DNA of 64,000 nucleotides. Origin: a phage. Position 1 is the first letter of the stretch. Every line of letters begins with the position of its first letter. The DNA lies in the NCBI GenBank assembly GCA_024614665.1, contig GCA_024614665.1_4861.1; one strand, 5' to 3'. Below, in pieces: positions 3,509-63,971 of the stretch. Both the position numbers and the translations under genes were made by a program. Under the pieces are notes generated by a model. That model made no database searches. It saw nothing but the letters and a program-made list of their open reading frames with translations, and was not told the origin of the DNA.

Positions 3509-3997
3509 TTATTCGTCGTCTTCGTCTTCTTCATCAGTTGCCATCATGGACTTGGCAAACTCTTTACGCAGCTTGCCTTCCAACGCTTTAGACTTCGGAG
3601 AACCGAAACCGTAAGAGATGGACGCTGCCCATTCTTTCTGAGTTGGGTTTTCAGTAACCGGGCGAGAGAACACGGTAGAGAATGCTGCGTTACCGATATC
3701 GAGCGTTAAGTCCAGTGCACCGATTTCGCTATCCGCTTTTGCACGGTCGGCAATCAGACCACCGGCAACGCCACCGAACAGTTCAGTGAAGTTTGCGTCG
3801 TGCTGTCGCAGAGCGTCAGCGTCTTCCAGTGTGAAGCGATAGTCCACATCCCCAACTTTCGTTACCGGGAGCGTGGAAGTATATAGCTCGACGAGCGGCT
3901 CAGCGTTCAGCGCCAGGTCTTCGGACAGGGTTGCTGCCGGCGTGTCCAGTTCAGCGATCAGTTTGTGCAGTGCTTTCATTGAAGTTACTTCAGCCAT
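3509..3997 (-). CDS. hypothetical protein with acidic C-terminal tail
   Basis: 162-aa ORF ending EEDEDDE; AAGGAA SD upstream. Confidence 0.55.
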   Translation of the reverse strand: MAEVTSMKALHKLIAELDTPAATLSEDLALNAEPLVELYTSTLPVTKVGDVDYRFTLEDADALRQHDANFTELFGGVAGGLIADRAKADSEIGALDLTLDIGNAAFSTVFSRPVTENPTQKEWAASISYGFGSPKSKALEGKLRKEFAKSMMATDEEDEDDE

Positions 3998-5173: not shown

Positions 5174-5572
5174 TCAGATCAGCTGCTCGGCGCGCAAACG
5201 TCTCAAAGTGTTCGTTGCTGTAATAAGAACATCTTGCAGCTCTTGTATTGCTTCGCCATCAAAGTACGCTTTAAGATGCAGGTCGCTGGTGATGAGTCCG
5301 CCGTATTTGTAAGGCAGGTCTGTAATATCACAGACGATGGGATTTTCTGCTCGCCACTTTTCATCAGCAATGAGAATAAGAAACTTCCAGGCGTTTTGAT
5401 TGTCGAGCGCTTCGCCGGTTTCTGGCTTGTAGAGTTCTTTTAAACGTTTATCGCGCTCAGCGATAAGGTATTCGTCATCAGTCAACAGACGAATTAAATC
5501 GGCTTCGTTGCTCTCGGCTTTAGCACAAAGCATCATGGCAACAAAGGGGTCTTGGCGTAGTTGGTTAGTCAT
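5174..5572 (-). CDS. hypothetical protein
   Basis: 132-aa ORF; AAGGAG SD 8 nt upstream of ATG; preceded by promoter-like elements. Confidence 0.55.
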   Translation of the reverse strand: MTNQLRQDPFVAMMLCAKAESNEADLIRLLTDDEYLIAERDKRLKELYKPETGEALDNQNAWKFLILIADEKWRAENPIVCDITDLPYKYGGLITSDLHLKAYFDGEAIQELQDVLITATNTLRRLRAEQLI

Positions 5573-5590: not shown

Positions 5591-5606
5591 GTAATAGTCG
5601 ATTAAA
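5591..5606 (-). promoter_or_regulatory. TTTAATCGACTATTACC element upstream of SD
   Basis: Minus-strand TTTAATCGACTATTACC CAGAAGGAG TATTTACA ATG. Confidence 0.45.
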
Positions 5607-5631
5607 GCGTTAACGTGTAACGCTCACCTAA

Positions 5632-5647
5632 GTAATATATATCTCAG
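5632..5647 (-). promoter_or_regulatory. AT-rich promoter-like element (TATATTAC type)
   Basis: Minus-strand CTGAGATATATATTACTTAGGTGAG, repeated near-identically at 63690-63706; contains TATATTAC, which I recall as the early-promoter consensus of phiKZ-like phages. Confidence 0.5.
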
Positions 5648-5664
5648 TTCTTTTTGAATGCAAT

Positions 5665-5709
5665 TAATAAAATAAAAAGGCTCACCCGTATCCGAAGATA
5701 GGATGAGCC
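5665..5709 (-). terminator. intrinsic terminator
   Basis: Hairpin GGCTCA.../...TGAGCC followed on the minus strand by TTTTTATTTTATT, just after the stop of gene 5719-6267. Confidence 0.55.
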
Positions 5710-8174: not shown

Positions 8175-8903
8175 TTACCTCATATACAAATCCTCGAGTG
8201 GCTCTGCACGTACCGGATCGACCTGGAGTGCAGAACGGATACCCTGTTTCAGCTCCACATCTGCAATCTTGGCCAACCTGGAAGTTTTGTTCAATGAACC
8301 TGAACGCAGCGGAATAAACTGCACCCGATTCATCAAATCGCTGTCTTTTTTCAGGGTGTAGCGGAAATACGTCCGCGGGTCGCCAACCTTACGCTGTGTG
8401 TGGGCAGCATAACAGTCAGCGGTGATCTGGTCGTTAAAGACCGTAAAGCCGTTCCACGTCTTAGTGTCAGACAATAGCTCAGCGTCATCTACTGCGGTAT
8501 ACCAGAAAGGCCGGTTGCCGAAGTCGTAGATGTACGAAGCGATGTTGTAGACTGGCGAGGATAGCACTTGCAGCATTCGGTTGGGGAACACCACCGTGCC
8601 GGGGTCAAAACGGAACTCGTAATACGGCACACCCTGAACATCAATTTCCTCAAACGCCGACGGGGTAATTTCAATGAACGTCGTGACGTTCGATACCCCG
8701 TAGGTTTTGCGGTCAGTGGAGATAGCGAAAATACCGACGATTTCTACTTGCGAAGAAATTACCGCCAGCTCTTTAGCCACGAAGCCAACAGGGATGTAAA
8801 TGTAACATCCCCCTTTGGTGATGGTGGCCGTGCCTTGGTCCACTAAATCTGCATGAATTTTCGTCGCGTCACGACGTGCTGTTTCAATGGCGCTCACGAC
8901 CAC
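8175..8903 (-). CDS. hypothetical protein
   Basis: 242-aa ORF, GTG start with AGAGAGG SD. Confidence 0.5.
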   Translation of the reverse strand: MVVSAIETARRDATKIHADLVDQGTATITKGGCYIYIPVGFVAKELAVISSQVEIVGIFAISTDRKTYGVSNVTTFIEITPSAFEEIDVQGVPYYEFRFDPGTVVFPNRMLQVLSSPVYNIASYIYDFGNRPFWYTAVDDAELLSDTKTWNGFTVFNDQITADCYAAHTQRKVGDPRTYFRYTLKKDSDLMNRVQFIPLRSGSLNKTSRLAKIADVELKQGIRSALQVDPVRAEPLEDLYMR

Positions 8904-10725: not shown

Positions 10726-13700
10726 TTAGTTGATTTTAGCCGGCAAGGCTGGGACGTCTTCACCATCTAAGATGCGTCCGATGTTCTCCCCACCACGATA
10801 CCCGACAGCGTTGGTGGTTCCGATGCGCATGATAGAACCTACGATACGTGCGTCGACGGAATCACGACCAAAGATAATGTCGAGTTCCTGCCCGTCTTCC
10901 GTTTTGTTGGTTCCATACATCACTTCCTGAACCGTCGTTTTCAGCTGGTTAGCAATAACCATCTTATCCGCTGCTGCCATCTCTACCCGGTGTGTGATGT
11001 AGAATCGGACACACAGGCTATTGTACGCTAACGGCACCCCCTCAACACGAAAATCACCGTTGACTCGACCGTCCTTCGGCTCGTCACGTTTGAGAGCCAG
11101 CGCAGTCTTCCGACGTATACGGTCGTATTTACGAACCATCTCCGCCAAAGACGGGGTCATATCTTCCAACTCGCCGTGGTAAACCACTTCGATTTTGTCG
11201 ATAAACCCACGAACACCAGAGCGTGGTGCAAAGGAGCTTAACTCACGCAGCGTCTCCGCTGCTTCTTTACTGAACCCGCTCATATCGCCAGTCAGGTTGT
11301 CGGTGAAGGTGCATAGAATTGAATCCACGTCTACGTGGTCCCCTTCTTTTACCATCTCCAACAGGTTCTGGGTGAATGTCATTGTGACTTCTTTGAGTTT
11401 GGTAACATCGGCTTCGGCCTTAGCAGCGAACCGCTCACTAATGGCGTTGGAGTCCTCAATTACTTCTTCCCCTTCAATCAAAGCGACAGTTGCCAGTATC
11501 CCGTTTTTAAAACTGACCTGCGTTGGATCATAGATGTCTGGTTCAAAGTGTTGTTCGTTGTACGTGATAACGGCACCGGCAGGGAGTTTATCTCCGCGCT
11601 TCCATTTCGTTACCAGGGTGTGTGGGTAGTAAGTCCCTTCGTGCGGACCGAACCAACGACCCAGTGGGAAAGCTTCTTCCTCCCCGTCGTCGTATTTGAT
11701 TTTAACGTGGTCGTTAAGAACCTCCACAATCTTGCCAGGTTTATCGATTACGCGTGCGTGCTTCACAGAAGTACGGTGTGCCACGAACTTTTCTTGCTCG
11801 GTACGATACGGTGTGGTGGTTGCGCCAACACAACTGGTCGCAGAACCGAATTGAATCCCAACGAAGTTCTGACGCTTAGCATCGTCCATCAGGGTATCCG
11901 GCACCAAGCCATCAATAAACGACAGCGCCTCACCCGGCTTCAGTTTATCGAGGTCCTTTTTAAAGGTCGTGCCGTCCACGGTATCGTAGCGCGGGTTGTT
12001 TGTTGCAAAGGCGGTGATACCTACGTCGCCGTTATCGACCGTGTTACCGGAGACAATCCCCAGGTCGCTCGGTTGGAATTCACGGGTACTGTAGACCATG
12101 GTTTTGCGGTTACGACCGCCTGTACCGCCCATGGTAACGACATCCTTTTCTTTGATGTTCTGTACCGGGTTTGCGCCAGGTGCCAGCAAAACAGACGGGT
12201 CGGAGTTAATTGCACCCCACACCATGTCCTGTGTCAGCTCAAACTTACGATTCGAGTTAGGCGCGTTGTTGTAGTTACGCATCGCCCGCACCATCGCGGT
12301 GTAGATGTGATACGAAATACGTTGGTTCCCGATGAACATCATTTCGTCACCGTTAATTTCCGGTAACGTGTGGTCCGTCTGCAGCAGTTCGTTAGAACGC
12401 TCCAGTAAGCCGATAAAGGTTTCCGGCTCGCCCATTTTCCTGAGGATACGCGCGTGCATGTCGTCAACAAATGCGGTCCGCATCAGCTTCAGCTCTTTGA
12501 TGTAGCGTGGTGTTAGCCCATCTGCATCGCGTAACAGGTTCAGGTAAATGTCTTCCCGGTCAACTTCCGACTCGGTATACGTGGTAAAGTGTTTAATGTA
12601 ACGGTCTAAGCCGTTGACAATCATCCTCTGTTGATCGTTCTCGCAGACAATTGCAATTTTCGCATCCTGGAGACGAATAATGGAGTCGAACTGACCTTTA
12701 TCGATACGTTGTCCGACAGAGAGAACCTCGTAACTGATACCGAAGTGTTTCAACATCCCGGTTAATCCGAGATAGTACGCAAACACAAAGCCCAGCGAGA
12801 TTGATTTACCCATCAGTGACAATTCAGTCATTTCACGTGGAGCCTTAGCGGTGTCCACGCCAAAGACTTCGGCGAGTGTACCCAGTGGTTCGGTCTTATC
12901 CTTATCCACTCGATAGAGCTGGGAGTTTTTATCCATACCGACGATGACATGACTCCGCGGTTTCTTCGCCACAGGTACCAGCTCGACACGGTCCGCATCT
13001 GCCAGTTGCCCTTCGTTAAAGAATACCGCTTTCTGTTTAATGTCAAAGTTCCATTGGTACCCAATTGCGTTGAACGTTGCTACACGACGCGCTACTTCGG
13101 TATATTGGCGCGGCAGTTTAGACAGCGGATCGAACACATTCGCCAGTTTTGCATCAGTGATTTCGGTGTTCTTTGGATCGACTGCACGAGTAATAATCGC
13201 GTTAGTGAGCCAACGTCCGTAATCATTGACGACTTTATCGCTGCGACGGACAAAGTTCTTCCCGTAGGCAGTGGTTAACGCTACAGTATCGTGGGACACT
13301 TTACGGATAGGAACATCGACGCGCTGACGACGCATTGTATATTCCACACCATTTGCAACCCAAGTACCGTCTTCGGTTAATGCAGGAATTGAGAAACGTA
13401 CCGTGGTTGGTTCTCCGCCAATCGGCTGAATACGCAACGTGTGGTGTTCGATATTCCCGGTAACGGAAATCTCTTTCTCAACAGTGTGATTGTGAATCGC
13501 CAAACCGAGACGCTGAGATGACGCCACTGCACCCAGAACATCTTTCGGGAAGATTTCCTGGTTGTACTGACGAATGATTTGGTCGGTGGTATTTTCCGCC
13601 CAGGCTTCATCCGTAACTAAGCGTTCAATCTTCTTAGGCTCGGCTTTAACTTCGAGTTTCTTCGGATCAATGGTCAGACCTTCGCCGTACGTCTCTTTAG

Positions 13701-14931
13701 GATTGTACGGGTTGGGTAAGTTTACGAAACGTTTAGAAGATTCGTTCAGGAACTGATACGCTTTGGCGGTGACGCGGCCCGCTTCTGCCAGACGCTCAAC
13801 TTCCTGTTTAATCACAGCATCGTGTGGGATGGTGCGTTCTACGACGATGGTGGTTGGTTTGACATCTTCTTTCGGCGCTTCGATGACCAGATCTTCTTTC
13901 TCATCGAACTCATGATCGTTCAATGTGTCGTCGGCGTTGTCGCTTTGTGTTGCTTCATCGTCGACGATATCGAGGGTTTCTTCCGGTTTACTGGCAACGG
14001 TATCAACAGCATCGTCGTCCTCACCCAGATGTACGCGTTCGTCCCCTTCCGGTGTAACGAACTCGTCATCTTCGTAGTCGGTAGACGGCGGTGTGGTCAT
14101 CACAGTAGTCAGTGTACGGTAGAACATTCTGCCCATCTGCACGTCAGTCAAACGACCACCGGCAGACTTACGCATTCTTTCAATTACACCCATGTTCATG
14201 GATGTAAAACCACCGTTGTGCGTGAAGATAAAGTTCACACGTGACAGCTGGTTCATGTCCATACCGTCAAACAGGGTTGCTTGCTGATCGCCGTAAGCCC
14301 AACCGAACAGTTCCAGTAACCACAGGAGATTAAAGTCCTTAAAGCGCTCCAGTTTGGTTTTAACACGATCGTTATACGTCGTTTTAAAACGATCGAAAGA
14401 AGGCAGTACGTTACCCAGTTCGATGATGTAGTAGTTCTGACGCATGTACTCACGTGAGTCAGTTTTCATCTGGTTAGTTATCAGCAGCTGAATGTTGTGC
14501 AGACGTTCGTACCAGGACATCAGAGTATCAGGGTAGAAATAATGCGGCAGCATCGGGGTGTAGTTTTCGATGAGCAGCACTTTTGGATCGGAACGTACCA
14601 CGCCGTCTTCAATCATGCGACGAATACGACGGTTGTTACGATGGTACTGGAAGATTTGACGTTCTTGGCCAACAACCGGTTTCTTACGCGGATGGCCGAT
14701 AATGCCGTCTTCAGGCAGCTGGAAGTGGTGGCGAATCATCGCCGGTTTTTCCAGCTGGCCAAAACACGGTGTAGTTAACGGCGGCGCTAAAACCACCTGG
14801 TCTAAATCGATGGTGTGGTAGATAGAACCACGTGGGAGCTGGAGCTTCTCCAGCGGGATAATACGCGGGCGACCGAACTCATCGGTCTTGCGCACGGTAA
14901 AGCGCTGGTTAAACTGTTTCAGAAAAATCAT
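10726..14931 (-). CDS. large subunit of a phage multisubunit RNA polymerase (beta or beta'-like, divergent)
   Basis: 1401 aa directly downstream of, and co-oriented with, the beta'-like N-terminal subunit gene. Contains VDDMHAR and a later GDEMMF segment loosely resembling bacterial beta C-terminal motifs, plus a long acidic insertion. Assignment is mainly contextual. Confidence 0.45.
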   Translation of the reverse strand: MIFLKQFNQRFTVRKTDEFGRPRIIPLEKLQLPRGSIYHTIDLDQVVLAPPLTTPCFGQLEKPAMIRHHFQLPEDGIIGHPRKKPVVGQERQIFQYHRNNRRIRRMIEDGVVRSDPKVLLIENYTPMLPHYFYPDTLMSWYERLHNIQLLITNQMKTDSREYMRQNYYIIELGNVLPSFDRFKTTYNDRVKTKLERFKDFNLLWLLELFGWAYGDQQATLFDGMDMNQLSRVNFIFTHNGGFTSMNMGVIERMRKSAGGRLTDVQMGRMFYRTLTTVMTTPPSTDYEDDEFVTPEGDERVHLGEDDDAVDTVASKPEETLDIVDDEATQSDNADDTLNDHEFDEKEDLVIEAPKEDVKPTTIVVERTIPHDAVIKQEVERLAEAGRVTAKAYQFLNESSKRFVNLPNPYNPKETYGEGLTIDPKKLEVKAEPKKIERLVTDEAWAENTTDQIIRQYNQEIFPKDVLGAVASSQRLGLAIHNHTVEKEISVTGNIEHHTLRIQPIGGEPTTVRFSIPALTEDGTWVANGVEYTMRRQRVDVPIRKVSHDTVALTTAYGKNFVRRSDKVVNDYGRWLTNAIITRAVDPKNTEITDAKLANVFDPLSKLPRQYTEVARRVATFNAIGYQWNFDIKQKAVFFNEGQLADADRVELVPVAKKPRSHVIVGMDKNSQLYRVDKDKTEPLGTLAEVFGVDTAKAPREMTELSLMGKSISLGFVFAYYLGLTGMLKHFGISYEVLSVGQRIDKGQFDSIIRLQDAKIAIVCENDQQRMIVNGLDRYIKHFTTYTESEVDREDIYLNLLRDADGLTPRYIKELKLMRTAFVDDMHARILRKMGEPETFIGLLERSNELLQTDHTLPEINGDEMMFIGNQRISYHIYTAMVRAMRNYNNAPNSNRKFELTQDMVWGAINSDPSVLLAPGANPVQNIKEKDVVTMGGTGGRNRKTMVYSTREFQPSDLGIVSGNTVDNGDVGITAFATNNPRYDTVDGTTFKKDLDKLKPGEALSFIDGLVPDTLMDDAKRQNFVGIQFGSATSCVGATTTPYRTEQEKFVAHRTSVKHARVIDKPGKIVEVLNDHVKIKYDDGEEEAFPLGRWFGPHEGTYYPHTLVTKWKRGDKLPAGAVITYNEQHFEPDIYDPTQVSFKNGILATVALIEGEEVIEDSNAISERFAAKAEADVTKLKEVTMTFTQNLLEMVKEGDHVDVDSILCTFTDNLTGDMSGFSKEAAETLRELSSFAPRSGVRGFIDKIEVVYHGELEDMTPSLAEMVRKYDRIRRKTALALKRDEPKDGRVNGDFRVEGVPLAYNSLCVRFYITHRVEMAAADKMVIANQLKTTVQEVMYGTNKTEDGQELDIIFGRDSVDARIVGSIMRIGTTNAVGYRGGENIGRILDGEDVPALPAKIN

Positions 14932-14949
14932 ACATGTGCCTTATGGGTA

Positions 14950-16563
14950 TCATTTCAACAGCGCAGCAGTCGTTCTTTTAATCACGTTGTTAACCGGATT
15001 GATTTTGAAACTGCCGTCTGTTGCAAACCAGTAGTTTTTCGAACTGACCCACTTCCGATTTTCCTCGAGCGCTTCGGTTGACATCGGGCAGTTTGCTGAG
15101 CCGGTGTCACCATCGTAGTCACCACCCAATCCACCTAATCGGGATGGATGTGGTGCCATGGATTCCACAAAGGTTTTCACGGTACGGTCAGGGAAGCTAA
15201 TTGCACCCTTCTCTTTTAACGTGACCCAATCGTCTTCCAGTTCATGCAAATAGAGGGAAGAGGTGGTGGTCTCCAATCTTATGGTCGAGGAGTAAGTCGA
15301 ACCGCGTCCCGTAACCGGATAACGCGTGATGAACGAGAAGTAGTCATTCCAAATATCGTAACCTGACAAATAGAGGAGTTCTGCTAAGCTCAGTCCGCGG
15401 ACAAGCTTACGGTCACGTCCTTCCGGCAGGTCTTCAATATCGTAAAAGATTTTGAAGCTGCGTTTGTCCTGGTAGATTAATGCCACGTAATGGTCCGGAT
15501 CAATCATCAGCGGTTTATGTCGAAGCTCGCGCGCTTCCATTCTGTTGATGAGTGTTTCGATGCCATCGTCGGTAGTGAAAAGGTCATACACCCGCCCGGA
15601 GACTTCCAGGAACTCACGCTTGAGTGTTTTGGTGTTAACGCCGTATAAGTTGCCGTCCCCTGCCCGGATGTTACTGAGGTAACGTTCACGGATGTGGTAT
15701 TGAGCCACAGGCAGTAATGCCTTCAGGGTTTGGTACAAACCGATACGGGTATCCGTTGGACGAATCGCATCTTCGCGACCCATGACCTTGGAACCGGTTG
15801 AGAATGAAGACAGTACGTTACGCGTACCGTTCATTAACTTACGTGACGTCACTTTACGACGTGCAAAACCACCTTTACCGTCTTGGATGTTGAAAAAGTA
15901 CATCCAGATGTCATTAAAGGTTTGTTGGAGCTTCCAGCGAACCGGGTCAGTCAGTTCCGTTCGCGTACTGCGGTCGGGGATTGCACGTGCCAGAGAAATC
16001 AGACGGCGGTAGAGTCCGCCAATCTCTTCTTCTTGGTCGCGGCCATCCTGACGAATGACCAAATCACGTAATCCCGCAGGCAGAACCAGCACATAGCGGC
16101 TGAGACTGACCGGACGGAACTTATTGAAGAAATCGACTGTCTCGTCGCGACGCATTGATTCGTTGCGTCCTGGCGTCAGTTGTTCGTAGTAGCGTAGGAA
16201 GAAGTTGAAGCCGGTGTCTGCACCTTTATCACTGGGCAGAGCCGGCTCGAAATCTTTTTCTTTCTCATTCCAGATAGCGAATCGCTTCCCGGAACAGATT
16301 TCTTCGTACAGCTGTTTCAGCTGGAACAGTGCCAAACAAACGGTCGGCGAAATGATATCCAGTTTGATATCAATGTACGAGAACGTTGAGTCTCGTGCCT
16401 CGCTCCCTGTGAGGCCAAATATTTCAGTTGAATACAGTCCTTCAGGGTGAAAGTTTTTCGTCAGTCCCTGAAAGGTGTCTGTTGTTGTAACTGGTTTTAA
16501 ATGCGACACCAGGGACTTGTTGACGTTTAACAGGTAAAAGTCAACCCAGTTTAGCTTTCTCAC
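14950..16563 (-). CDS. multisubunit RNA polymerase beta'-like subunit, N-terminal fragment type
   Basis: 537 aa. YVLVLPAGLRDLVIRQDG...LYRRLI parallels the bacterial beta' segment LPVLPPDLRPLVPLDGGRF...LYRRVI; MAPHPSRLGG followed by DYDGD parallels NRAPTLHRLG ... NADFDGD (catalytic Mg-binding aspartates). GTG start with AGGAG SD. Confidence 0.6.
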   Translation of the reverse strand: MRKLNWVDFYLLNVNKSLVSHLKPVTTTDTFQGLTKNFHPEGLYSTEIFGLTGSEARDSTFSYIDIKLDIISPTVCLALFQLKQLYEEICSGKRFAIWNEKEKDFEPALPSDKGADTGFNFFLRYYEQLTPGRNESMRRDETVDFFNKFRPVSLSRYVLVLPAGLRDLVIRQDGRDQEEEIGGLYRRLISLARAIPDRSTRTELTDPVRWKLQQTFNDIWMYFFNIQDGKGGFARRKVTSRKLMNGTRNVLSSFSTGSKVMGREDAIRPTDTRIGLYQTLKALLPVAQYHIRERYLSNIRAGDGNLYGVNTKTLKREFLEVSGRVYDLFTTDDGIETLINRMEARELRHKPLMIDPDHYVALIYQDKRSFKIFYDIEDLPEGRDRKLVRGLSLAELLYLSGYDIWNDYFSFITRYPVTGRGSTYSSTIRLETTTSSLYLHELEDDWVTLKEKGAISFPDRTVKTFVESMAPHPSRLGGLGGDYDGDTGSANCPMSTEALEENRKWVSSKNYWFATDGSFKINPVNNVIKRTTAALLK

Positions 16564-28706: not shown

Positions 28707-29504
28707 TTATTTGTAGTTAACCATATACGGCGCGCCCTGCTTAGTAAAGCCAACCGTCAGCTTGCTCGCCTCTTCTTTTACCCATGCGGGTAATTCTTCA
28801 CGGAATGCCGGGTTCAGGAACCAAATCTGCTCATAGCGCCCGTCAATCTTTTCAACAACACGTTCCCAACCTTCGACGTACGTCAACGAGAACCATTTAA
28901 AACGCGCATGGCGTGCCCAGTAGTGGTATTCGATGGTTCGACCGACGTGAGTCAATACATCAATCAGAACTTGGTAGAAGCTCGGCTTTCCGATGACATG
29001 GGTATACTCGAAGATAACAGACTCTTCGCCAGGGACGAAGTTATCTTCAAAATTCTTCTCCCCTGTTAAAGGTACCATTATCGTGTCGTTGTTGATACAC
29101 AGCAACCAGTGCTTATTCGAAAATATCGGCGTGTCGCCTGAGAAACGAGCCCAGCGATAATTTTCAATCGCGACGCCAATCTGTGGCCGTAATGTATCGA
29201 CCACCTTCGCTATCGCTGCAGGGTCTATCGGCTCATAGACCAGACAAATCGCTTGCACTTGCTCTCTTTCCTGCTCAGGTTCCGCAGGTCGTGGTCGCCG
29301 CCCCAGCATCAAAATCCCACTAAGATTAGTTTCCCCAATCTCAATGATTTCTATTTCGCTAGTAGGAAGCTGCCGTTTAGCGTCCTCCATGTCGACGGCT
29401 CCTAATAACCCGTATTCGTAGTCGTCGAATTCCACCGTGTAGAATTCATCGGAGAACGCAAAGAGTTTCATCATCTTATTTCTCCATTGTTTTAAAGAGA
29501 ACAT
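28707..29504 (-). CDS. hypothetical protein
   Basis: 265-aa ORF in the array. Confidence 0.5.
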   Translation of the reverse strand: MFSLKQWRNKMMKLFAFSDEFYTVEFDDYEYGLLGAVDMEDAKRQLPTSEIEIIEIGETNLSGILMLGRRPRPAEPEQEREQVQAICLVYEPIDPAAIAKVVDTLRPQIGVAIENYRWARFSGDTPIFSNKHWLLCINNDTIMVPLTGEKNFEDNFVPGEESVIFEYTHVIGKPSFYQVLIDVLTHVGRTIEYHYWARHARFKWFSLTYVEGWERVVEKIDGRYEQIWFLNPAFREELPAWVKEEASKLTVGFTKQGAPYMVNYK

Positions 29505-29739
29505 CTACGCTATTACGGAGCATATTCAGTTCTTCTTCTTTCTTACGCAGCAGCATTTCAGGAGCGTTCTTTGCAAACTCTTTCAGTGCCATTTGGACGA
29601 CATGCGAATCGGTTTCGTCCGGGAACAGAGCTTTTAATGCGACCCATTCTTCCGCGGTGAATACGTCGCCCTTGCGGACATTACGCTGTTGTGGCAGTCG
29701 AATTGTTTTACTGAGACGGTCTGTCATAACTCCACCCAA
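29476..29739 (-). CDS. hypothetical protein
   Basis: 87-aa ORF overlapping both neighbours slightly. Confidence 0.4.
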   Translation of the reverse strand: MGGVMTDRLSKTIRLPQQRNVRKGDVFTAEEWVALKALFPDETDSHVVQMALKEFAKNAPEMLLRKKEEELNMLRNSVDVLFKTMEK

Positions 29740-30260
29740 ATCAGTTTAAAGGTATTACCTTCTAAGCCAGTAGGATGGATAATCATCGCTTCGGTATAGA
29801 TAGGCTCTTCTTCCGCAATACGGTGCTCAGCTGCTAAGCCTGAAAGGTGCATGTAGAGGTCTTCATCCATATCCCCGTTAAAAGACGAAGTCAGGATAAA
29901 GGGTGTGGACTCAGCGATTTGCAAAAGCGTTTCTTTGCTAATCTGTATTTCCATTGTCCGACGCCGTTCCATCCAGCTACCTTGCTCGTGGATATATGGG
30001 TCGGTATTAATGCGAACGACAGGTTCCGTAGACACACCCAGACCACGCGACATCATCTGGATAGCCAGAAGCGTCCACCATTCTTGTTCGGATATCGGGA
30101 AACCGATAGCCTTCATTGTACCGTCCGGTTGTGGAACGTGTAATTGTCCACGATGTTCGTCTGGAAGCTCGATGATCTTCTGTCCGTTGATAGGAATAAA
30201 CGGCGATTCGTCCGTAGCAACCGCCGCTTTAGGCTTGAAGGGAACGATGTTGTCAACCAT
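29724..30260 (-). CDS. hypothetical protein
   Basis: 178-aa ORF directly downstream of thyA; no DHFR motifs. Confidence 0.5.
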   Translation of the reverse strand: MVDNIVPFKPKAAVATDESPFIPINGQKIIELPDEHRGQLHVPQPDGTMKAIGFPISEQEWWTLLAIQMMSRGLGVSTEPVVRINTDPYIHEQGSWMERRRTMEIQISKETLLQIAESTPFILTSSFNGDMDEDLYMHLSGLAAEHRIAEEEPIYTEAMIIHPTGLEGNTFKLIWVEL

Positions 30261-30272
30261 AAACGCTCCTAA

Positions 30273-31310
30273 TTAGATAGCGACTGGTGCTTTAATTGGG
30301 TCGTGTGATACATAATCCCGGATCTCAAAATCTTCGAACTTATAATCGAAGATAGATTCCGGTTTACGCTTGATGACCAGTTTCGGTAAAGGTAAATGTT
30401 CGCGCGTCAGCTGCAGCTTGGCCTGCTCCAGATGGTTGGAGTACAGATGCACATCGCCGCCACTCCAAACGAAATCGCCCGGCACCATGTTAACTTGCTG
30501 TGCTACCATGTGTACGAGTAATGCGTAAGACGCGATGTTGAACGGTGTTCCCAGGAAGAAGTCTTGGGAACGTGCGTACAGTTGACATGAAAGAACGCGG
30601 CGAGGTATTTCAAGTGCGTCCATCTCAACGTGGAACACTGTGTCATCTGCTACAGCTTCATTACTAAAGCGGGAATCGTTAAATTGATCTGGAAGGTTCT
30701 TTTCAAACCAATCAAGACGCTCGTCGATAGACAGCTCACGAGTGTAGAACTGAAAGAACGCATGACACGGAGCTAACGCCATTTGATCCAACTCACCCAC
30801 GTTCCATGCGCTGACAATAATACGGCGACTGTCAGGATCGTTACGCAGCTGGTCAATCACCTTAGAGATCTGGTCGTGCTCTTTCAGAAGTACACGCGCA
30901 TCGAACATTTGTGAACCGTCGTCCGCGTCGCCATAATCCGCGTATCCAGCAGCTTGCAGTTTCTCGAGTAAAGCTGCATTTTTCTTAGGCACCAGTTTCA
31001 CATCTTTCCAACGTCTCCATTGTGCACCATACAGGGGTCCAAGGTTCCCATTCTCATCTTGCCACTCCCGCCAAATGGTAACGCCGTTATCTTCCAGATA
31101 TTTGGTGTTGGTATCACCACTAAGGAACCACAGCAATTCATGGATAATAGAACGCAGGTGGAGTTTCTTAGTCGTGACTAACGGGAAACCTTTACGCAAA
31201 TCAAAACGCATCTGGCGACCAAAGACAGAAAGCGTCCCCGTTCCAGTACGATCGCCTTTAACATGACCCTCGTCCAGAATGTTCTGCATCATCTCAAGAT
31301 ATTGTTTCAC
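30273..31310 (-). CDS. thyA: thymidylate synthase (ThyA family) with two insertions
   Basis: Near-collinear match to E. coli ThyA as I remember it ([63 protein letters not shown]-terminal KAPVAI). Start placed at GTG 31310 with AAGGAAA SD. Confidence 0.85.
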
Positions 31311-37271: not shown

Positions 37272-37302
37272 AGGTGTTATCCTATTATGAGATGTTGTCT
37301 CG

Positions 37303-37323
37303 GATAGATAATATCTGTCTGAG
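37303..37323 (-). promoter_or_regulatory. AT-rich promoter-like element in divergent intergenic region
   Basis: Minus-strand CTCAGACAGATATTATCTATCCGAG between divergent genes 36741-37271 and 37348-37818. Confidence 0.4.
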
Positions 37324-37347
37324 TTCTTTTTGAGATGAGGTTATCCC

Positions 37348-41358: not shown

Positions 41359-41373
41359 CTTATATATTCGAGG
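41359..41373 (+). promoter_or_regulatory. AT-rich promoter-like element (plus strand)
   Basis: CTTATATATTCGAGG 9 nt upstream of ATG 41382, in a divergent intergenic region. Confidence 0.35.
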
Positions 41374-42137: not shown

Positions 42138-42146
42138 AACGTGATA

Positions 42147-42188
42147 CCTCCCACCTACCGTAACTGGTAGGTGGGAGGGTTTTATTTT
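42147..42188. terminator. bidirectional intrinsic terminator
   Basis: Long stem CCTCCCACCTACC / GGTAGGTGGGAGG then GTTTTATTTT; A-rich run on the other side. Confidence 0.7.
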
Positions 42189-43110: not shown

Positions 43111-43126
43111 TTTAATACACCTTACG

Positions 43127-43144
43127 TAAATAGTCGATTAAAAA
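43127..43144 (-). promoter_or_regulatory. TTTTTAATCGACTATTTAC element upstream of SD
   Basis: Minus-strand order: terminator, TTTTTAATCGACTATTTAC, GTAAGGTG SD, ATG. Confidence 0.45.
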
Positions 43145-43175: not shown

Positions 43176-43180
43176 TTTAA

Positions 43181-45807: not shown

Positions 45808-45840
45808 CGTGAATAAATTCTCCTTAAGGTTACGTCCCTG

Positions 45841-45859
45841 TAGATAATATCTATCTCAG
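45841..45859 (-). promoter_or_regulatory. AT-rich promoter-like element
   Basis: Minus-strand CTGAGATAGATATTATCTACAGG overlapping the stop of the upstream gene, about 35 nt before ATG 45807. Confidence 0.4.
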
Positions 45860-45860
45860 A

Positions 45861-46601
45861 TTACTTTAAGAGATGCAAGAAGCGTGCTGCCTGTTCTGTA
45901 AAGTGAAAATACTCGATGGTATCAGGTTCGTCCGAGTGAATGTCATCCGGGTCCAGCAGGTAGCCCGAGATATCATCCGTTAAAACCCAAGCGTCCCCTT
46001 GCAGGAAAATACCCATCGGTTTTTCTACCACGGGCATCACTAAGTCCGAATAAGAGTTACCTTCTGCTACCCTTACAATGTCTACACACGGGTCAACAAT
46101 ATACAGGTTGCAGAGACTGCGATCTTTAAGACTGCGATGAAACATCGCTCGATCGTACCAAATAACCTGAGAACAATTATCTTCGTCACCCGCCACATCG
46201 ACCAACTCTGTCCAGAAACGATGTAAGAACCAGTTCAACGCACCGGTTATTAGCTCGTTCGGTTTCAGCATTCTAACGTGTTCGTCGTACAACTCTTCCA
46301 TTGTCCAGATTCGACACTGCTCACGATCGATTGTCGGTAGGGGAGGTATTTGCGGCGGGACTTGTTTAGGCATCGGTTCATCACATCTTGCATTGTAACG
46401 CGCAATTGTTTCGGTAACCAGCTCTGCCACAACATCACAAGCCGCTTCAAATCCCCACTTGTACAACACGTCGTAATCTTCCATGGGCGCAGCACCGAAC
46501 TCACGGTTCGTTGCCATCCACGACATCCATCCGTATTGCTCCACACAGTTAATCAGACTTTGTGTGTGGAGCGTGAGCGATTCACTCACGACTCGCAACA
46601 T
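45861..46601 (-). CDS. hypothetical protein
   Basis: ORF; start placed at the ATG (MLRVVSESL) to avoid overlap with the RNase H gene. Confidence 0.5.
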   Translation of the reverse strand: MLRVVSESLTLHTQSLINCVEQYGWMSWMATNREFGAAPMEDYDVLYKWGFEAACDVVAELVTETIARYNARCDEPMPKQVPPQIPPLPTIDREQCRIWTMEELYDEHVRMLKPNELITGALNWFLHRFWTELVDVAGDEDNCSQVIWYDRAMFHRSLKDRSLCNLYIVDPCVDIVRVAEGNSYSDLVMPVVEKPMGIFLQGDAWVLTDDISGYLLDPDDIHSDEPDTIEYFHFTEQAARFLHLLK

Positions 46602-48836: not shown

Positions 48837-48851
48837 TTCAACTCTCCACGA

Positions 48852-48864
48852 GATTATATATCAC
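48852..48864 (-). promoter_or_regulatory. AT-rich promoter-like element
   Basis: Minus-strand TTAATAGTTAATAGTGTGATATATAATCTCGTGGAGAG directly upstream of ATG 48836; contains a tandem TTAATAG repeat. Confidence 0.4.
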
Positions 48865-54906: not shown

Positions 54907-54929
54907 TGTGCTCCTTTGTAATGTGCCCT

Positions 54930-54947
54930 GATAATAATATCTATTTG
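54930..54947 (-). promoter_or_regulatory. AT-rich promoter-like element
   Basis: Minus-strand CAAATAGATATTATTATCAGGG overlapping the 3' end of the macrodomain gene, upstream of the endolysin region. Confidence 0.35.
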
Positions 54948-55441
54948 AAACTTTTTGGGATGATTTTCTCTGCTTCCCTCAGCAGGGTGTCTGGTAAATA
55001 GAATCGATAAGTCTGCTCCGTGTGCTGTAGTCGTTTCTGTAAGTGTATAAAGATTTCCAATCGCTCATGGTAACGTAACCAACCGTTAGCCATCCCTAGG
55101 GGCGGTATCGCAATCCCTCCTTCTAAGTCTTCCCCTAGTCGCGCCAGCGCATCAATGCCGGACGTGACATAGTAAATCTGCGATTTATAGCGAAAATGGG
55201 TTTTAGTAGGAAGGAGTATTACCCCTTCCTCAGGATAACAATAGACCTCACCGATAACGATTTGCTCTTTACGACATTTCTGGCGATAGTCGTTATAAAG
55301 CGATGGGAAGCGTTCTCGGCACGCCAAGGCAATGCCCCTTCCCATCGCACCAACACAGTTAACTGTAACGACCTTGAAGCGCTCAGGCGCGTTAAACAGG
55401 TCGTGGGAGATAATAGCCTCGTCGATCAGTTCGAGTGACAT
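54941..55441 (-). CDS. macrodomain protein, TARG1/DarG-like ADP-ribosyl hydrolase candidate
   Basis: 166 aa; DLFNAPERFKVVTVNCVGAMGRGIALACRERFP and IAIPPLGMANGWLRYHERL parallel human TARG1 segments [34 protein letters not shown] and LSMPRIGCGLDRLQWENV (from memory). Confidence 0.55.
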   Translation of the reverse strand: MSLELIDEAIISHDLFNAPERFKVVTVNCVGAMGRGIALACRERFPSLYNDYRQKCRKEQIVIGEVYCYPEEGVILLPTKTHFRYKSQIYYVTSGIDALARLGEDLEGGIAIPPLGMANGWLRYHERLEIFIHLQKRLQHTEQTYRFYLPDTLLREAEKIIPKSFK

Positions 55442-61782: not shown

Positions 61783-61802
61783 AGTAATAGTCGATTAAAA
61801 AG
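61783..61802 (-). promoter_or_regulatory. TTTTTAATCGACTATTACTC element upstream of SD
   Basis: Minus-strand order: terminator T-run, TTTTTAATCGACTATTACTC, GTAAGGA SD, ATG. Confidence 0.45.
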
Positions 61803-61804
61803 GA

Positions 61805-61866
61805 CCCTGCGGCTATGTGTTGGGGATATCACCGCAGGGCCAAAGTGAGATGGGTCGTCATCTCAC
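61805..61866 (-). terminator. tandem hairpins, putative terminator
   Basis: Hairpin GTGAGATG/CATCTCAC (61845-61866) and hairpin CCCTGCGG/CCGCAGGG with a large loop (61805-61839) followed on the minus strand by TCCTTTTTAAT. Confidence 0.4.
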
Positions 61867-61883
61867 GTTATAACATCTGTCTG
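61867..61883 (-). promoter_or_regulatory. AT-rich promoter-like element (weaker variant)
   Basis: Minus-strand CAGACAGATGTTATAAC just after the stop of gene 61896-62279; resembles the element at 37303-37323. Confidence 0.3.
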
Positions 61884-61895
61884 AAAACTTTTCGG

Positions 61896-62279
61896 TTACT
61901 GGTCGAGCGCTACTGAACCACGCACCACTCCTTGCTGTTCAATAACCAGGAGGCGTTGTTTGGTTTTCGTATTGTAAGCGAGCGACGCGCGAAGCGTCGG
62001 GTCGCACGTTATTGTCTCTACTGGCACAATCTCTTGTGCCTTTGAGTTCAACAAAAAGTAGTAACCTGCCGGACAAGTTTCCTCGCCCTTTGCGTGGACC
62101 AGGATGTACTCGTCGTGCCGGCTGACTTCTTCACATCTACCATCATCCCCAGTACAGACTTCGAACGAAGGCGGGTTGTACTGATACGGTGTGCCTGGTA
62201 GTAAATCTTCTACGCTAGTTGTAGCTGAAGCAGAAGCGGTAAAGAACACCGCCACGATAATACCCATAAATCCACGCAT
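61896..62279 (-). CDS. secreted protein (signal peptide)
   Basis: 127 aa; N-terminal MRGFMGIIVAVFFTASASA signal-like segment; AAGGAA SD. Confidence 0.5.
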   Translation of the reverse strand: MRGFMGIIVAVFFTASASATTSVEDLLPGTPYQYNPPSFEVCTGDDGRCEEVSRHDEYILVHAKGEETCPAGYYFLLNSKAQEIVPVETITCDPTLRASLAYNTKTKQRLLVIEQQGVVRGSVALDQ

Positions 62280-63630: not shown

Positions 63631-63659
63631 AAAAAAGAATAGGCTACCCGAGGGTAGCC
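63631..63659 (-). terminator. intrinsic terminator
   Basis: Hairpin GGCTACCC TC GGGTAGCC followed on the minus strand by TATTCTTTTTT. Confidence 0.6.
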
Positions 63660-63689
63660 AGTTGAGTTAATCTCTTAACTCTCACCTAG

Positions 63690-63706
63690 GTAATATATAT
63701 CTGAGA
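63690..63706 (-). promoter_or_regulatory. AT-rich promoter-like element (TATATTAC type)
   Basis: Minus-strand CTCAGATATATATTACCTAGGTGAG, near-identical to the element at 5632-5647. Confidence 0.5.
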
Positions 63707-63710
63707 TATT

Positions 63711-63971
63711 TTACAATGTGAAGGTTGTGTTAAGAATACGAAAACCCAATGCTCGCTTAGCGATTTGCATATTTGCAGGCGTGAAGTCCACCAGTTTGAT
63801 TTGAACGATCGATAAATCGTAAAGCTTGTGAAGCACTTCGATTTTGTGCCGCCAATCTGTTTTTTGGTGCAGCTCTATCGTCGTTGGTATCTCGCCTAGT
63901 CTCGGCAACTGTGCCCCAAGTAAACGATGATGGACTTTACCGTTTATAGTTGGGGTACCTTCCGTAACCAT
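63711..63971 (-). CDS. hypothetical protein
   Basis: 86-aa ORF close to the window edge; upstream region not fully visible. Confidence 0.4.
   Translation of the reverse strand: MVTEGTPTINGKVHHRLLGAQLPRLGEIPTTIELHQKTDWRHKIEVLHKLYDLSIVQIKLVDFTPANMQIAKRALGFRILNTTFTL

What the first reader, a model, noticed from the sequence alone, without database searches (positions are those of the whole stretch)
5632..5647. Recurrent AT-rich promoter-like element of the TATATTAC type
Near-identical copies CT(G/C)AGATATATATTAC(T/C)TAGGTGAG occur on the minus strand at 5632-5647 and 63690-63706. Related variants (GATAGATATTATC, CAGATATTATC, GATATATAATC) occur at 37303-37323, 45841-45859, 54930-54947, 48852-48864, 61867-61883 and on the plus strand at 41359-41373, always in intergenic or gene-end positions facing a downstream gene. 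The core matches what I recall as the early-promoter consensus of phiKZ-like phages, which would imply host-independent early transcription.
Basis: partly seen in the sequence, partly recalled or inferred. Interest (0 to 1): 0.55.

Follow-up and report, generated by a model that had tools for sequence, protein, structure and literature searches.

The report
Giant-phage early promoters (phiKZ type)
The repeated AT-rich element is real and is almost certainly the start signal that a Salmonella giant phage (SPN3US-like) uses, with the RNA polymerase it carries inside its own particle, to switch on its first genes; signals of this kind are already known from the related phages phiKZ and AR9, so the finding is correct but ordinary.

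Summary
The window is the reverse complement of about 64 kb of an SPN3US-like Salmonella jumbo phage (Seoulvirus, phiKZ-related). The other two sites (48852, 41359) do not match.

In the whole SPN3US genome the motif occurs 24 times on the main coding strand, 23 of them intergenic, and once on the other strand. It sits upstream of the chimallin gene and of a non-virion RNA polymerase gene, and never directly upstream of a virion-annotated gene.

A matrix built only from phiKZ's TATATTAC sites ranks 11 of these SPN3US sites as its top 11 hits. The layout TATTAY-N6-G is the published AR9 consensus with G as +1, and the published phiKZ/phiR1-37 start spacing. The sites fail a sigma-70 scan, and the motif is invariant across four phage genera.

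Best reading: early promoters of the virion-packaged RNA polymerase. This is a known kind, and no transcript data exist for this phage. Side finding: TATATTAC-type copies carry a covarying stem-loop at the predicted 5' end, and two leaders contain terminator-like hairpins.

The parts
5623..5665 (-). Early promoter, TATATTAC type (class A). The core ATATATTAC is at 5640-5632 and the predicted +1 G is at 5625. It drives gene 5174-5572 and the genes after it (the next three called ORFs reach 3509-3997, including the HD-domain gene).
   Evidence: 44.8 bits. Rank 1 of the phiKZ-derived matrix over the SPN3US genome. Sequence. Not called by the sigma-70 scan.
5669..5709 (-). Terminator-like hairpin (GGCTCATCC...GGGTGAGCC) followed by TTTTTATTTT. 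It closes the upstream transcription unit just before the promoter.
   Evidence: Read from the sequence. The stem is imperfect and the scan did not call it.
5605..5625 (-). Stem-loop that starts at the predicted +1: GAGCGTTA-cacgt-TAACGCTT.
   Evidence: RNAfold gives 8 pairs and -10.2 kcal/mol for the leader. Anchored stems with compensatory changes recur across 36 class A leaders.
5592..5603 (-). Leader box AATCGACTATTA, immediately 5' of the Shine-Dalgarno sequence.
   Evidence: The box lies 28-30 nt upstream of the ATG in 7 of 8 intergenic copies genome-wide.
37299..37341 (-). Early promoter, AGATATTATC type (class B). The core is at 37316-37308 and the predicted +1 G is at 37301. It drives gene 36741-37271 and the long minus-strand gene run after it (thymidylate synthase, MazG).
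   Evidence: 39.9 bits. The motif is invariant in orthologous intergenic DNA of four genera while the flanks vary (alignment A1).
37281..37323 (+). Reverse reading of the same near-palindromic site (AGATAATAT-N6-G), facing the divergent gene 37348-37818. Whether it acts as a second, divergent promoter is unknown.
   Evidence: 29.0 bits. The same stretch is also reported as an 11-pair inverted repeat.
45835..45877 (-). Early promoter, class B. The core is at 45852-45844 and the predicted +1 G is at 45837. It drives genes 45073-45807 through 43181-43723, ending at the terminator-like site 43175-43154.
   Evidence: 37.7 bits. Terminator-like site.
54925..54967 (-). Early promoter, a weaker class B copy (CAAATAGATATTATT). 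The core is at 54942-54934 and the predicted +1 G is at 54927. It lies upstream of the SLT-transglycosylase gene (54120-54881; the start codon is uncertain).
   Evidence: 30.0 bits. Pfam SLT domain.
61861..61903 (-). Early promoter, the weakest copy (AGATGTTAT). The core is at 61878-61870. The spacing to the conserved G is 5 nt instead of 6, so the predicted +1 is 61864. It drives the gene ending at 61266, whose likely ATG is at 61766.
   Evidence: 22.9 bits. Sequence.
61845..61866 (-). Stem-loop at the predicted 5' end: GTGAGATG-acgacc-CATCTCAC.
61797..61841 (-). Terminator-like GC-rich hairpin inside the leader (GGCCCTGCGG...CCGCAGGGTCC) followed by TTTTT. The box AATCGACTATTA follows at 61796-61785.
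   Evidence: Read from the sequence. The loop is too long for the scan, so this is by inspection only.
63681..63723 (-). Early promoter, class A. The core is at 63698-63690 and the predicted +1 G is at 63683. It drives gene 63204-63605.
   Evidence: 47.9 bits. Rank 3 of the phiKZ-derived matrix. Not called by the sigma-70 scan.
63664..63681 (-). Stem-loop at the predicted 5' end: GAGTTAA-gaga-TTAACTC.
   Evidence: RNAfold.
63632..63659 (-). Terminator-like hairpin GGCTACCCTCGGGTAGCC plus TATTCTTTTT, lying inside the leader between the promoter and the start codon. The box AATCGACT follows at 63625-63618.
   Evidence: Called by the terminator scan. Sequence.
10726..16563 (-). Genes for virion RNAP subunits gp241 (beta-N, 10726-14931) and gp240 (beta'-N, 14950-16563), the presumed reader of these promoters. 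Neither has the motif upstream.
   Evidence: RefSeq annotation of the matching SPN3US genes. Virion mass spectrometry and subunit assignment in PMC5105663.
38491..39159 (-). Gene for virion RNAP subunit gp218 (beta-C, 222 aa).
8175..8903 (-). Gene for virion RNAP subunit gp244 (beta'-C, about 240 aa).
48852..48864 (-). Its function is unknown.
   Evidence: Best matrix score -3.5 bits. Not called as a sigma-70 promoter either.
41359..41373 (+).
   Evidence: Best matrix score -12.6 bits.

Best explanation
These are early promoters of an SPN3US-like jumbo phage, homologous to the early promoters of phiKZ and AR9.

The likely mechanism is as follows. The multisubunit virion RNA polymerase (gp241, gp240, gp218, gp42, gp244) is packaged in the head and injected with the DNA. 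It binds duplex DNA at an about 40-bp element. With the predicted start as +1, that element comprises an A-tract near -30, TTT at -23 to -21, CAGAT at -20 to -16, and an extended -10-like core A(G/T)ATATTA(T/C) at -15 to -7. Transcription starts at the conserved G six nucleotides after the core (GT-G-AG). No host sigma factor or host polymerase is involved.

The transcripts cover early operons. These include the nuclear-shell protein and non-virion RNAP subunits elsewhere in the genome. In this window they cover nucleotide-metabolism, nuclease and small unknown genes. The non-virion RNAP then takes over later transcription.

What is shown here: the motif, its orientation, its intergenic placement, its gene context, its conservation, and its homology to the phiKZ element. 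What is inferred: the enzyme, the start point, and the early timing.
For: (1) Placement and orientation. In the whole SPN3US genome the matrix finds 24 sites on the main coding strand and 1 on the other. Of the 24, 23 lie in the 6.4% of the genome that is non-coding (binomial 7e-27). The plain pattern A[GT]ATATTA[TC] gives 19 hits against 1 by strand, 17 of them intergenic.

(2) Independent cross-species test. A matrix built from 9 phiKZ sites ranks SPN3US motif members as hits 1-11 out of about 480,000 positions. The consensus sequences align column by column: ATTT-N6-TATATTAC-N5-TGA.

(3) Start-site spacing. The G six nt after TATTAY is present in 23 of 24 sites, by inspection. The same rule is the published AR9 consensus with G as +1, and 6 nt is the published phiKZ/phiR1-37 start spacing. 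The T-rich element upstream of -19 matches the dRNA-seq description for phiKZ.

(4) Gene context. Two copies precede the SPN3US chimallin gene, RefSeq gp244, which is followed by the homologue of the phiKZ nvRNAP gene gp55. This is the same layout as phiKZ gp54/gp55. One copy directly precedes another gene annotated as RNA polymerase beta subunit (29014-31251), which is outside the virion RNAP set. None of the 22 first downstream genes is virion-annotated (hypergeometric 0.008). The virion RNAP genes themselves lack the motif.

(5) Conservation. The motif is invariant at one orthologous locus in Seoulvirus, Erskinevirus, Machinavirus and Wellingtonvirus while the flanks diverge. The exact 21-mer of class A occurs 39 times in IMG/VR. 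Apart from one 7.4-kb fragment, all copies lie in contigs of about 107-246 kb, several of which match the genome lengths of known SPN3US relatives.

(6) Not sigma-70. None of the six window sites is called by the sigma-70 scan, and sigma-70-like sites are not enriched (29 against 25.1; 3 against 4.8; 2 against 3.2).

(7) Literature. A conserved AT-rich motif centred near -10 is said to be locatable upstream of early operons in every RNAP-encoding jumbo phage (PMC7598289).
Against: There are no transcript 5' ends, timing data or rifampicin data for SPN3US or its close relatives in anything I could read. The virion RNAP of this phage group had not been purified as of the 2017 paper, and I found no report of in vitro promoter recognition by it. 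The enzyme assignment therefore rests on analogy.

The matrix statistics are partly circular, which is why I also ran the plain pattern and the phiKZ matrix. According to the AR9 paper, a single deviation can kill an early promoter. The weak copies at 54934 and 61870, the latter with 5-nt spacing, may therefore be inactive.

One genome copy (25230) lies inside a coding region. The near-palindromic core of class B (AGATA-T-TATCT) is not explained by a simple promoter model.
Confidence: 0.85

Rival explanations
1. They are host sigma-70 promoters used for early transcription, as in T4. The TATTAT/TATTAC part would serve as a -10 hexamer read by the Salmonella RNA polymerase.
For: The core contains a near-consensus -10 hexamer (TATTAT). 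The sites lie upstream of genes and often just after terminators.
Against: There is no -35 element at 16-18 nt and no TGn extension. None of the six sites is called by the sigma-70 scan, and such sites are not enriched in these regions. The conserved positions (CAGAT at -20 to -16, G at +1, GT at -2/-1) are not sigma-70 determinants. The same architecture in phiKZ and AR9 is described as independent of the host polymerase.
Confidence: 0.04
2. They are promoters of the non-virion RNA polymerase (middle class) rather than of the injected virion enzyme.
For: The enzyme has not been identified experimentally for this phage. Both polymerases are phage-encoded, so sequence analysis alone cannot separate them. 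Some downstream genes (SLT transglycosylase, nucleases) need not be immediate-early.
Against: The sites precede genes for non-virion RNAP subunits and for chimallin, which must be made before that enzyme and the phage nucleus exist. In phiKZ the published middle motif (TACT near -22, A-rich) and late motif (TATG at the start) are different. The TATATTAC motif is the early one there.
Confidence: 0.06
3. The near-palindromic core of class B (AGATA-T-TATCT, extendable to about 21 bp) is an operator for a dimeric phage DNA-binding protein. Such a protein could shut early transcription off. This could hold instead of, or in addition to, promoter function.
For: There is dyad symmetry: the site at 37299-37323 is reported as an 11-pair inverted repeat. 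The reverse reading still scores 29 bits. One of the TATATTAC-type promoters (genome 94243) precedes a gene annotated as an HTH DNA-binding protein.
Against: Class A copies lack the symmetry but share every other feature. The flanks are strongly asymmetric and oriented towards genes, 24 to 1 by strand. No candidate binding protein was tested. Symmetry in a short AT-rich core can be fortuitous.
Confidence: 0.1
4. The repeats are mainly recombination substrates: mobile promoter-plus-stem-loop cassettes like the PeSL elements of T4-type phages. These would shuffle small genes between genomes.
For: Class A copies share a long cassette (promoter, stem-loop, AATCGAC box, ribosome-binding site) placed in front of small genes of unknown function. 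The cassette recurs in many related genomes.
Against: None of the four indels or divergent blocks between this window and SPN3US is bounded by a motif copy. The cassettes differ in their stem sequences by compensatory changes, which points to selection on structure rather than to recent copying.
Confidence: 0.05

Closest known systems
phiKZ early promoters (virion RNAP; TATATTAC-type AT-rich consensus)
   Same: The architecture matches column by column: A/T-rich upstream part, ATTT, six bases, TATATTAC, and a conserved G six bases later. The placement also matches, upstream of the nuclear-shell gene that is followed by an nvRNAP subunit gene. A phiKZ-only matrix retrieves the SPN3US sites as its top 11 hits.
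   Different: Most SPN3US copies (17 of 24) have AGATATTATC instead of TATATTAC. All carry CAGAT at -20 to -16, where phiKZ has AAACAG/AAGAT, and GTGAG around the start. No TSS mapping exists for SPN3US.
AR9 (Bacillus) early promoters, AAATATATATTAT-(6N)-G+1
   Same: The core ATATTAT, the six-base spacer and the initiating G are identical (PMC5312081).
   Different: AR9 has uracil-containing DNA and a longer pure A/T run. The SPN3US element has G/C positions (CAG, GTGAG) flanking the core.
Sigma-70 extended -10 promoters of enterobacteria
   Same: A TATAAT-like hexamer lies at about -12 to -7.
   Different: There is no -35 and no TG extension. The extra conserved positions are unrelated to sigma-70 contacts, and the sites fail the consensus scan.
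Promoter-early stem-loop (PeSL) cassettes of T4-type phages (recalled from memory: Arbiol, Comeau and Krisch, 2010; not checked here)
   Same: A repeated intergenic module combines an early promoter with a stem-loop, in front of small genes of unknown function.
   Different: PeSLs carry sigma-70 promoters and mark recombination boundaries. Here the promoter is of the phiKZ type, the stem-loop starts at the predicted +1, and no indel boundary coincides with a copy.
N4 virion RNAP promoters (DNA hairpin promoters; recalled from memory, with general background in PMC4496689, listed but not read)
   Same: Early genes are read by an injected, virion-carried polymerase.
   Different: N4 uses a single-subunit enzyme that recognises a small DNA hairpin upstream of the start. 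Here the conserved element is a linear AT-rich sequence, and the hairpin lies downstream of the start.
phiKZ promoter-proximal terminators that give short 5'-UTR RNAs (P112/T102, about 71 nt; PMC10914365)
   Same: Two leaders in this window (63683 to about 63632, and 61864 to about 61797) have a terminator-like hairpin with a T-run between the promoter and the start codon.
   Different: They are only predicted here. No read-through or short-RNA data exist.

Membership tests
vRNAP early promoters of phiKZ-related jumbo phages | A highly conserved AT-rich element of about 10 nt (TATATTAY-like) centred near -10 | tested here: met
   The core A(G/T)ATATTA(T/C) is present in all six window sites and in 24 genome sites. 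It is identical to the phiKZ TATATTAC in class A.
vRNAP early promoters of phiKZ-related jumbo phages | A conserved start nucleotide (G) 6 nt downstream of the consensus element | tested here: met
   TATTAY-N6-G holds in 23 of 24 genome sites and in 5 of 6 window sites; 61870 has N5. This tests the sequence feature only. The actual start is not mapped.
vRNAP early promoters of phiKZ-related jumbo phages | A T-rich/A-rich upstream element (upstream of about -19) | tested here: met
   TTT lies at -23 to -21 and an A-tract near -30 in the matrix consensus. It aligns with phiKZ AAAnAnATTT and is described for phiKZ in PMC8244752.
vRNAP early promoters of phiKZ-related jumbo phages | Recognised by a matrix derived from experimentally studied members | tested here: met
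   The top 11 hits of the phiKZ 9-site matrix on SPN3US are all motif members.
vRNAP early promoters of phiKZ-related jumbo phages | Located upstream of early operons (nvRNAP, nuclear shell) and not upstream of virion genes | tested here: met
   Copies precede the chimallin gene (followed by an nvRNAP gene) and another RNAP-subunit gene. 0 of 22 first downstream genes are virion-annotated, p=0.008. Temporal classes are inferred from gene function, not measured.
vRNAP early promoters of phiKZ-related jumbo phages | The genome encodes a virion-packaged multisubunit RNAP | tested here: met
   The genes for gp241, gp240, gp218 and gp244 lie in the window. The proteins were found in virions by mass spectrometry (PMC5105663).
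vRNAP early promoters of phiKZ-related jumbo phages | Transcription starts within minutes of infection and is independent of host RNAP and of new protein synthesis | not testable with these tools
   No transcriptome or inhibitor data for SPN3US-like phages were found. Weintraub 2019 was not readable.
Sigma-70 promoters | -35 and -10 hexamers with a 16-18 nt spacer (at least 9 of 12 matches) | tested here: not met
   None of the six sites was called on its own strand.
PeSL-type mobile regulatory cassettes | Copies mark the boundaries of gene insertions or deletions between related genomes | tested here: not met
   The indels against SPN3US at window 56076-56115, 44747-44986, 42142-43202 and about 3470 are not flanked by motif copies. 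Only one genome pair was compared.
N4-type hairpin promoters | A DNA hairpin (5-7 bp stem, 3-nt loop) upstream of the start as the recognition element | tested here: not met
   The core palindrome AGATA-T-TATCT leaves a 1-nt loop. The real stem-loops lie downstream of the predicted +1.
Rfam RNA families (for the leader) | A match at the gathering threshold | tested here: not met
   There were no matches in the whole window. The only sub-threshold hit, at E=0.89, is far below its cut-off.

The most novel reading that the evidence does not exclude
The TATATTAC-type copies may be more than promoters. They may form a conserved regulatory module shared by SPN3US-, phiEaH2- and Caitlin-like phages and uncultured relatives. 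The module runs: promoter, a stem-loop beginning at the first transcribed base, in some copies a terminator, the box AATCGACYATTA at a fixed 28-30 nt from the ATG, then the ribosome-binding site. On this reading the stem-loop and the box act on the RNA. They could protect the 5' end from RNase E/RppH-dependent decay. They could instead serve as a handle for a phage or ribosome-associated factor that favours the very first phage messages made in the early infection vesicle. The stem-loop is supported by covariation. Its function and that of the box are speculation.
Probability: 0.3. Interest if true: 0.45.

Novelty: new member of a known kind. Interest (0 to 1): 0.3.

Why it matters
The result gives a site-level map of the probable early promoters of an SPN3US-like phage: six in this window and 24 in the reference genome, each with a predicted start nucleotide. 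SPN3US is the genetic model for nucleus-forming Salmonella jumbo phages.

The map tells experimenters where to look for the first transcripts made by the injected polymerase. It also identifies which genes are likely immediate-early, and which about 40-bp element to use for early expression in engineered phages. A phiKZ consensus early promoter has been used that way (PMC12676376).

The near-identity of TATTAY-N6-G across Pseudomonas, Bacillus and Salmonella phages shows that promoter recognition by this unusual sigma-less polymerase is ancient and tightly constrained. It does not change the current picture, because the class of element is already described.

Tried and rejected
Literature that could not be read:
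- Lavysh 2016, which may already show the SPN3US motif.
- Ceyssens 2014.
- Weintraub 2019, the proteome time course.
- Supplementary TSS tables of the two phiKZ transcriptome papers.

Other dead ends:
- A full-text search for TATATTAC returned only irrelevant papers.
- The SPN3US chimallin could not be tied to phiKZ gp54 by tblastn, BLASTP, PDB sequence search, Pfam or PHROGs. I used the published assignment and synteny instead.
- MAFFT plus RNAalifold on the class A leaders gave no structure, because variable loop lengths put the 3' arms out of register. I replaced it with an anchored-stem count against shuffled and genomic controls.
- The Rfam search found nothing.

Ideas tested and rejected:
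- The two extra reader sites, 48852 and 41359, were rejected by score.
- The cassettes do not mark indel boundaries against SPN3US.
- The 16-nt class B pattern scanned against IMG/VR gave many single, probably chance, hits in unrelated contigs. Only the multi-copy contigs, which are jumbo phages, are informative.

Full report
WHAT THE WINDOW IS. A 4-kb sample of the window matches Salmonella phage SEGD1 at 99.8% and SPN3US at 99.6%, on the opposite strand. The whole window aligns to SPN3US positions 165,389-229,073 at 96-99% identity with four indels or divergent blocks. SPN3US (Seoulvirus, 240,413 bp) is a phiKZ-related, nucleus-forming jumbo phage with two multisubunit RNA polymerases. I fetched its whole RefSeq record with its 264 coding sequences so that the motif could be tested genome-wide.

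THE OBSERVATION. The two long copies exist as described. They share a pattern of the form AAAAAG...TCAGA(T/C)AGATATTAT. A 43-nt matrix built from SPN3US sites gives the six window sites 22.9-47.9 bits. Apart from the reverse reading of the 37308 site (29 bits), nothing else in the window reaches even 3 bits. Shuffled windows give 0.01 hits at 12 bits or more. That matrix is fitted to the sites, so I also used a plain pattern. AGAYAKATRTTAY has five matches, all on the minus strand, against 0.00 expected. The 8-mer TATATTAC alone is not significant in the window, with 3 hits against 1.2 expected.

GENOME-WIDE BEHAVIOUR. Only 6.4% of SPN3US is non-coding. A[GT]ATATTA[TC] occurs 19 times on the main coding strand, 17 of them intergenic, and once on the other strand. 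The matrix finds 24 sites on the coding strand and one on the other strand, all at 22.9 bits or more, with no coding-strand site between 6 and 22 bits. Of the 24, 23 are intergenic (binomial 7e-27). The core lies 41-276 nt upstream of the next start codon, with a median near 68. An unbiased count of 8-mers in upstream non-coding DNA recovers three signal classes: terminator T-runs and CTTCGG loops, Shine-Dalgarno sequences, and this motif.

ANATOMY. The consensus is actnnnAnTcnAAaaaaTTTCAGATAGATATTATCTanGTGAg. There are two subclasses.
- Class A reads TTTCAGATATATATTACYTAGGTGAG. It has seven genome copies, and the window copies are at 5632 and 63690.
- Class B reads TTTCAGATAGATATTATCT..GTGA. 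It has 17 copies, and the window copies are at 37308, 45844, 54934 and 61870.
The class B core AGATA-T-TATCT is a palindrome around one central base. This is why the 37308 site also scores in reverse and is reported as an 11-pair inverted repeat.

COMPARISON WITH KNOWN PROMOTERS. I derived the phiKZ element from phiKZ's own sequence rather than from memory. In its first 50 kb, TATATTAC occurs 7 times on the coding strand and never on the other. The copies lie upstream of gp5, gp6, gp10.1, gp31, gp36, gp41.3 and gp54. Iteration gives 9 sites with consensus aTaTATTcAAAaAaATTTAAaaagTATATTACaAAnTTGaa.

PHIKZ054 is reported to have the early promoter motif at a mapped primary TSS. The phiKZ early motif is described as an extended -10 box plus a T-rich element upstream of -19 (PMC8244752). 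The phiKZ-only matrix, scanned over both strands of SPN3US, places members of the SPN3US set at ranks 1-11. This test is not circular.

The AR9 early consensus is AAATATATATTAT-(6N)-G+1, and phiKZ and phiR1-37 start 6 nt downstream of their consensus elements (PMC5312081). SPN3US sites have TATTAY-N6-G in 23 of 24 cases, by inspection. I therefore predict the start at the second G of GTGAG. In the window these are 5625, 37301, 45837, 54927, 63683 and, with 5-nt spacing, 61864. These start points are inferred, not measured.

GENE CONTEXT. Two copies (15618, 15711) precede the 617-aa gene that Laughlin et al. call the diverged SPN3US chimallin, gp244 (PMC9365700). It corresponds by locus tag and synteny to RefSeq ACQ60_gp244. 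The next gene is the homologue of the phiKZ nvRNAP subunit gp55. This is the same arrangement as phiKZ gp54/gp55, with its TATATTAC at 45568. One copy (28973) sits 41 nt upstream of another RNA polymerase subunit gene outside the virion set. None of the 22 first downstream genes is annotated as a virion, packaging or lysis protein, although 43 of 231 plus-strand genes are (hypergeometric p=0.008).

In the window the predicted units cover small unknown genes, an HD-domain protein, thymidylate synthase, MazG, an SLT transglycosylase and the SMC-like protein, and possibly the ribonuclease genes if the 54934 unit reads through the intervening terminator-like sites. Four of the five virion RNAP subunit genes (gp241, gp240, gp218, gp244) lie in this window. 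The proteins are in the virion by mass spectrometry (PMC5105663). None of these genes has the motif upstream.

CONSERVATION. At the 37308 locus the stretch AAAAAGAACTCAGACAGATATTATCT...GAGA is essentially invariant in STsAS, pEa_SNUABM_29, Asesino, phiEaH2 and Machina. It is recognisable in Wellington. The flanking intergenic bases change, and overall DNA identity is 68-79%. The exact 21-mer of class A occurs 39 times in IMG/VR. Apart from one 7.4-kb fragment, all copies lie in contigs of 107-246 kb, several per contig and always on one strand. Several contig lengths equal those of SPN3US, phiEaH2, ChrisDB, Caitlin and Phobos as listed.

RIVALS.
- Sigma-70 promoters. The consensus scan calls none of the six sites, and sigma-70-like sites are not enriched. 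There is no -35.
- Non-virion RNAP promoters. This is unlikely, because the sites precede that enzyme's own genes and the shell gene, and because the phiKZ middle and late motifs are different.
- An operator for a dimeric regulator. This is possible as a second function of the palindromic class B core, but class A lacks the symmetry.
- PeSL-like recombination cassettes. The indels between this window and SPN3US are not bounded by copies.

LEADER FEATURES SEEN ON THE WAY. Class A copies continue into a conserved leader. In 36 distinct class A leaders from IMG/VR, 61% have an ungapped stem of 6 bp or more anchored at the predicted +1 (GAG...). The figure is 7% for shuffles and 7.9% for all 2,512 genomic GAG positions (p=7.5e-16). 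There are 14 distinct arm pairs. Stem positions +4, +5, +7 and +8 each show two or three different Watson-Crick pairs. The copies are related by descent, so the p-value overstates independence. The compensatory changes are nevertheless plain, for example GAGAGTTA/TAACTCTT, GAGCGTTA/TAACGCTT, GAGCATTGA/TCAATGCTT and GAGGAT/ATCCTC.

A box AATCGACYATTA lies 28-30 nt upstream of the ATG in 7 of its 8 intergenic copies, and 7 of the 8 lie within 110 nt downstream of a promoter copy. Two window leaders contain a terminator-like hairpin with a T-run between promoter and box: 63659-63642 and 61841-61802. This resembles the promoter-proximal terminators that give short RNAs in phiKZ (PMC10914365). No Rfam family matches. 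A 5'-terminal stem-loop is an established way to slow RNase E-dependent decay in enterobacteria (general knowledge). Whether it does so here is untested.

WHAT IS KNOWN AND WHAT IS NEW. [quoted passage not shown] It adds that these motifs are AT-rich, about 10 nt, and centred near -10 (PMC7598289, citing Lavysh 2016, which I could not read). The element is therefore a member of a described class, and the SPN3US logo may already be in print. I found no paper that lists the sites or maps the transcripts of SPN3US-like phages. The site list, the predicted starts, the two subclasses and the covarying 5' stem-loop module may be new details, but they are modest ones.

LIMITS. Everything about timing, enzyme and start point is by homology and context. 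The weak copies at 54934 and 61870 may not fire, given the sensitivity to single deviations reported for AR9.

Noticed in passing
window 5625-5605, 63681-63664, 61866-61845 (minus strand); loci L014-L050: A stem-loop begins at the predicted first transcribed base of TATATTAC-type promoters. Across 36 distinct leaders from related phages the arms differ but stay complementary. 61% have an anchored stem of at least 6 bp against 7.9% of genomic controls, with 14 distinct arm pairs.
   Followed up: yes
window 5603-5592, 61796-61785, 63625-63618 (minus strand); SPN3US 224198, which corresponds to window about 4700: The box AATCGACYATTA lies just 5' of the Shine-Dalgarno sequence, 28-30 nt from the ATG in 7 of 8 intergenic copies (19 nt in the eighth). 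Seven of the eight lie downstream of an early-promoter copy, and one (upstream of the HD-domain gene) has no promoter. It is positioned relative to the start codon, not the promoter. It could be a translational or protein-binding leader element.
   Followed up: partly
window 63659-63632 and 61841-61797 (minus strand): Terminator-like hairpins with T-runs lie inside two 5' leaders, between promoter and start codon. They predict short RNAs of about 50 and about 68 nt, or attenuation, as reported for some phiKZ 5' UTRs.
   Followed up: partly
window 37281-37341: The class B core is a palindrome (AGATA-T-TATCT). At this divergent intergenic region the reverse reading also has AGATAATAT-N6-G and faces gene 37348-37818. 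A bidirectional promoter is possible but untested.
   Followed up: partly
window 42142-43202: The window has about 1 kb that SPN3US lacks. It contains ORF 42187-43110 (307 aa, minus strand), which has no Pfam match.
   Followed up: partly
window 56076-56115: The window lacks about 550 bp that are present in SPN3US (173,273-173,825, gene ACQ60_gp073).
   Followed up: no
window 44747-44986: This block of about 240 bp is too divergent from SPN3US to align by megablast, inside an otherwise 96-99% identical region.
   Followed up: no
window 54906-54862 (minus strand): A 14-codon mini-ORF (MPSAPSSRIGNGKV) with a strong Shine-Dalgarno sequence (AAAGGAG) lies in the leader between the 54934 promoter and the SLT-transglycosylase gene. 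The true start of that gene is uncertain: TTG at 54881 in the mechanical ORF list, and about 54842 by the RefSeq equivalent.
   Followed up: no
window 61266-61832 (minus strand): The mechanical ORF start (GTG 61832) is probably wrong. The start that follows the AATCGAC box and TAAGGA is ATG 61766, which corresponds to the RefSeq start in SPN3US.
   Followed up: partly
window 48820-48925: The rejected site GTGATATATAATC lies just downstream of a two-way terminator-like hairpin (48894-48919) and about 10 nt upstream of the start codon of the exoribonuclease gene (48117-48836). It contains a perfect TATAAT but no -35. It could be a different promoter class or nothing.
   Followed up: partly
SPN3US genome (L001-L006), upstream non-coding regions: Besides the promoter motif, the most over-represented intergenic 8-mers are terminator parts (TCTTTTTT, CCTTCGGG) and an extended ribosome-binding site (CTTAAGGAG, AAGGAGTATT). 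Terminator-like sites are enriched in the window (33 against 18.7 expected in 36.5-56 kb).
   Followed up: no
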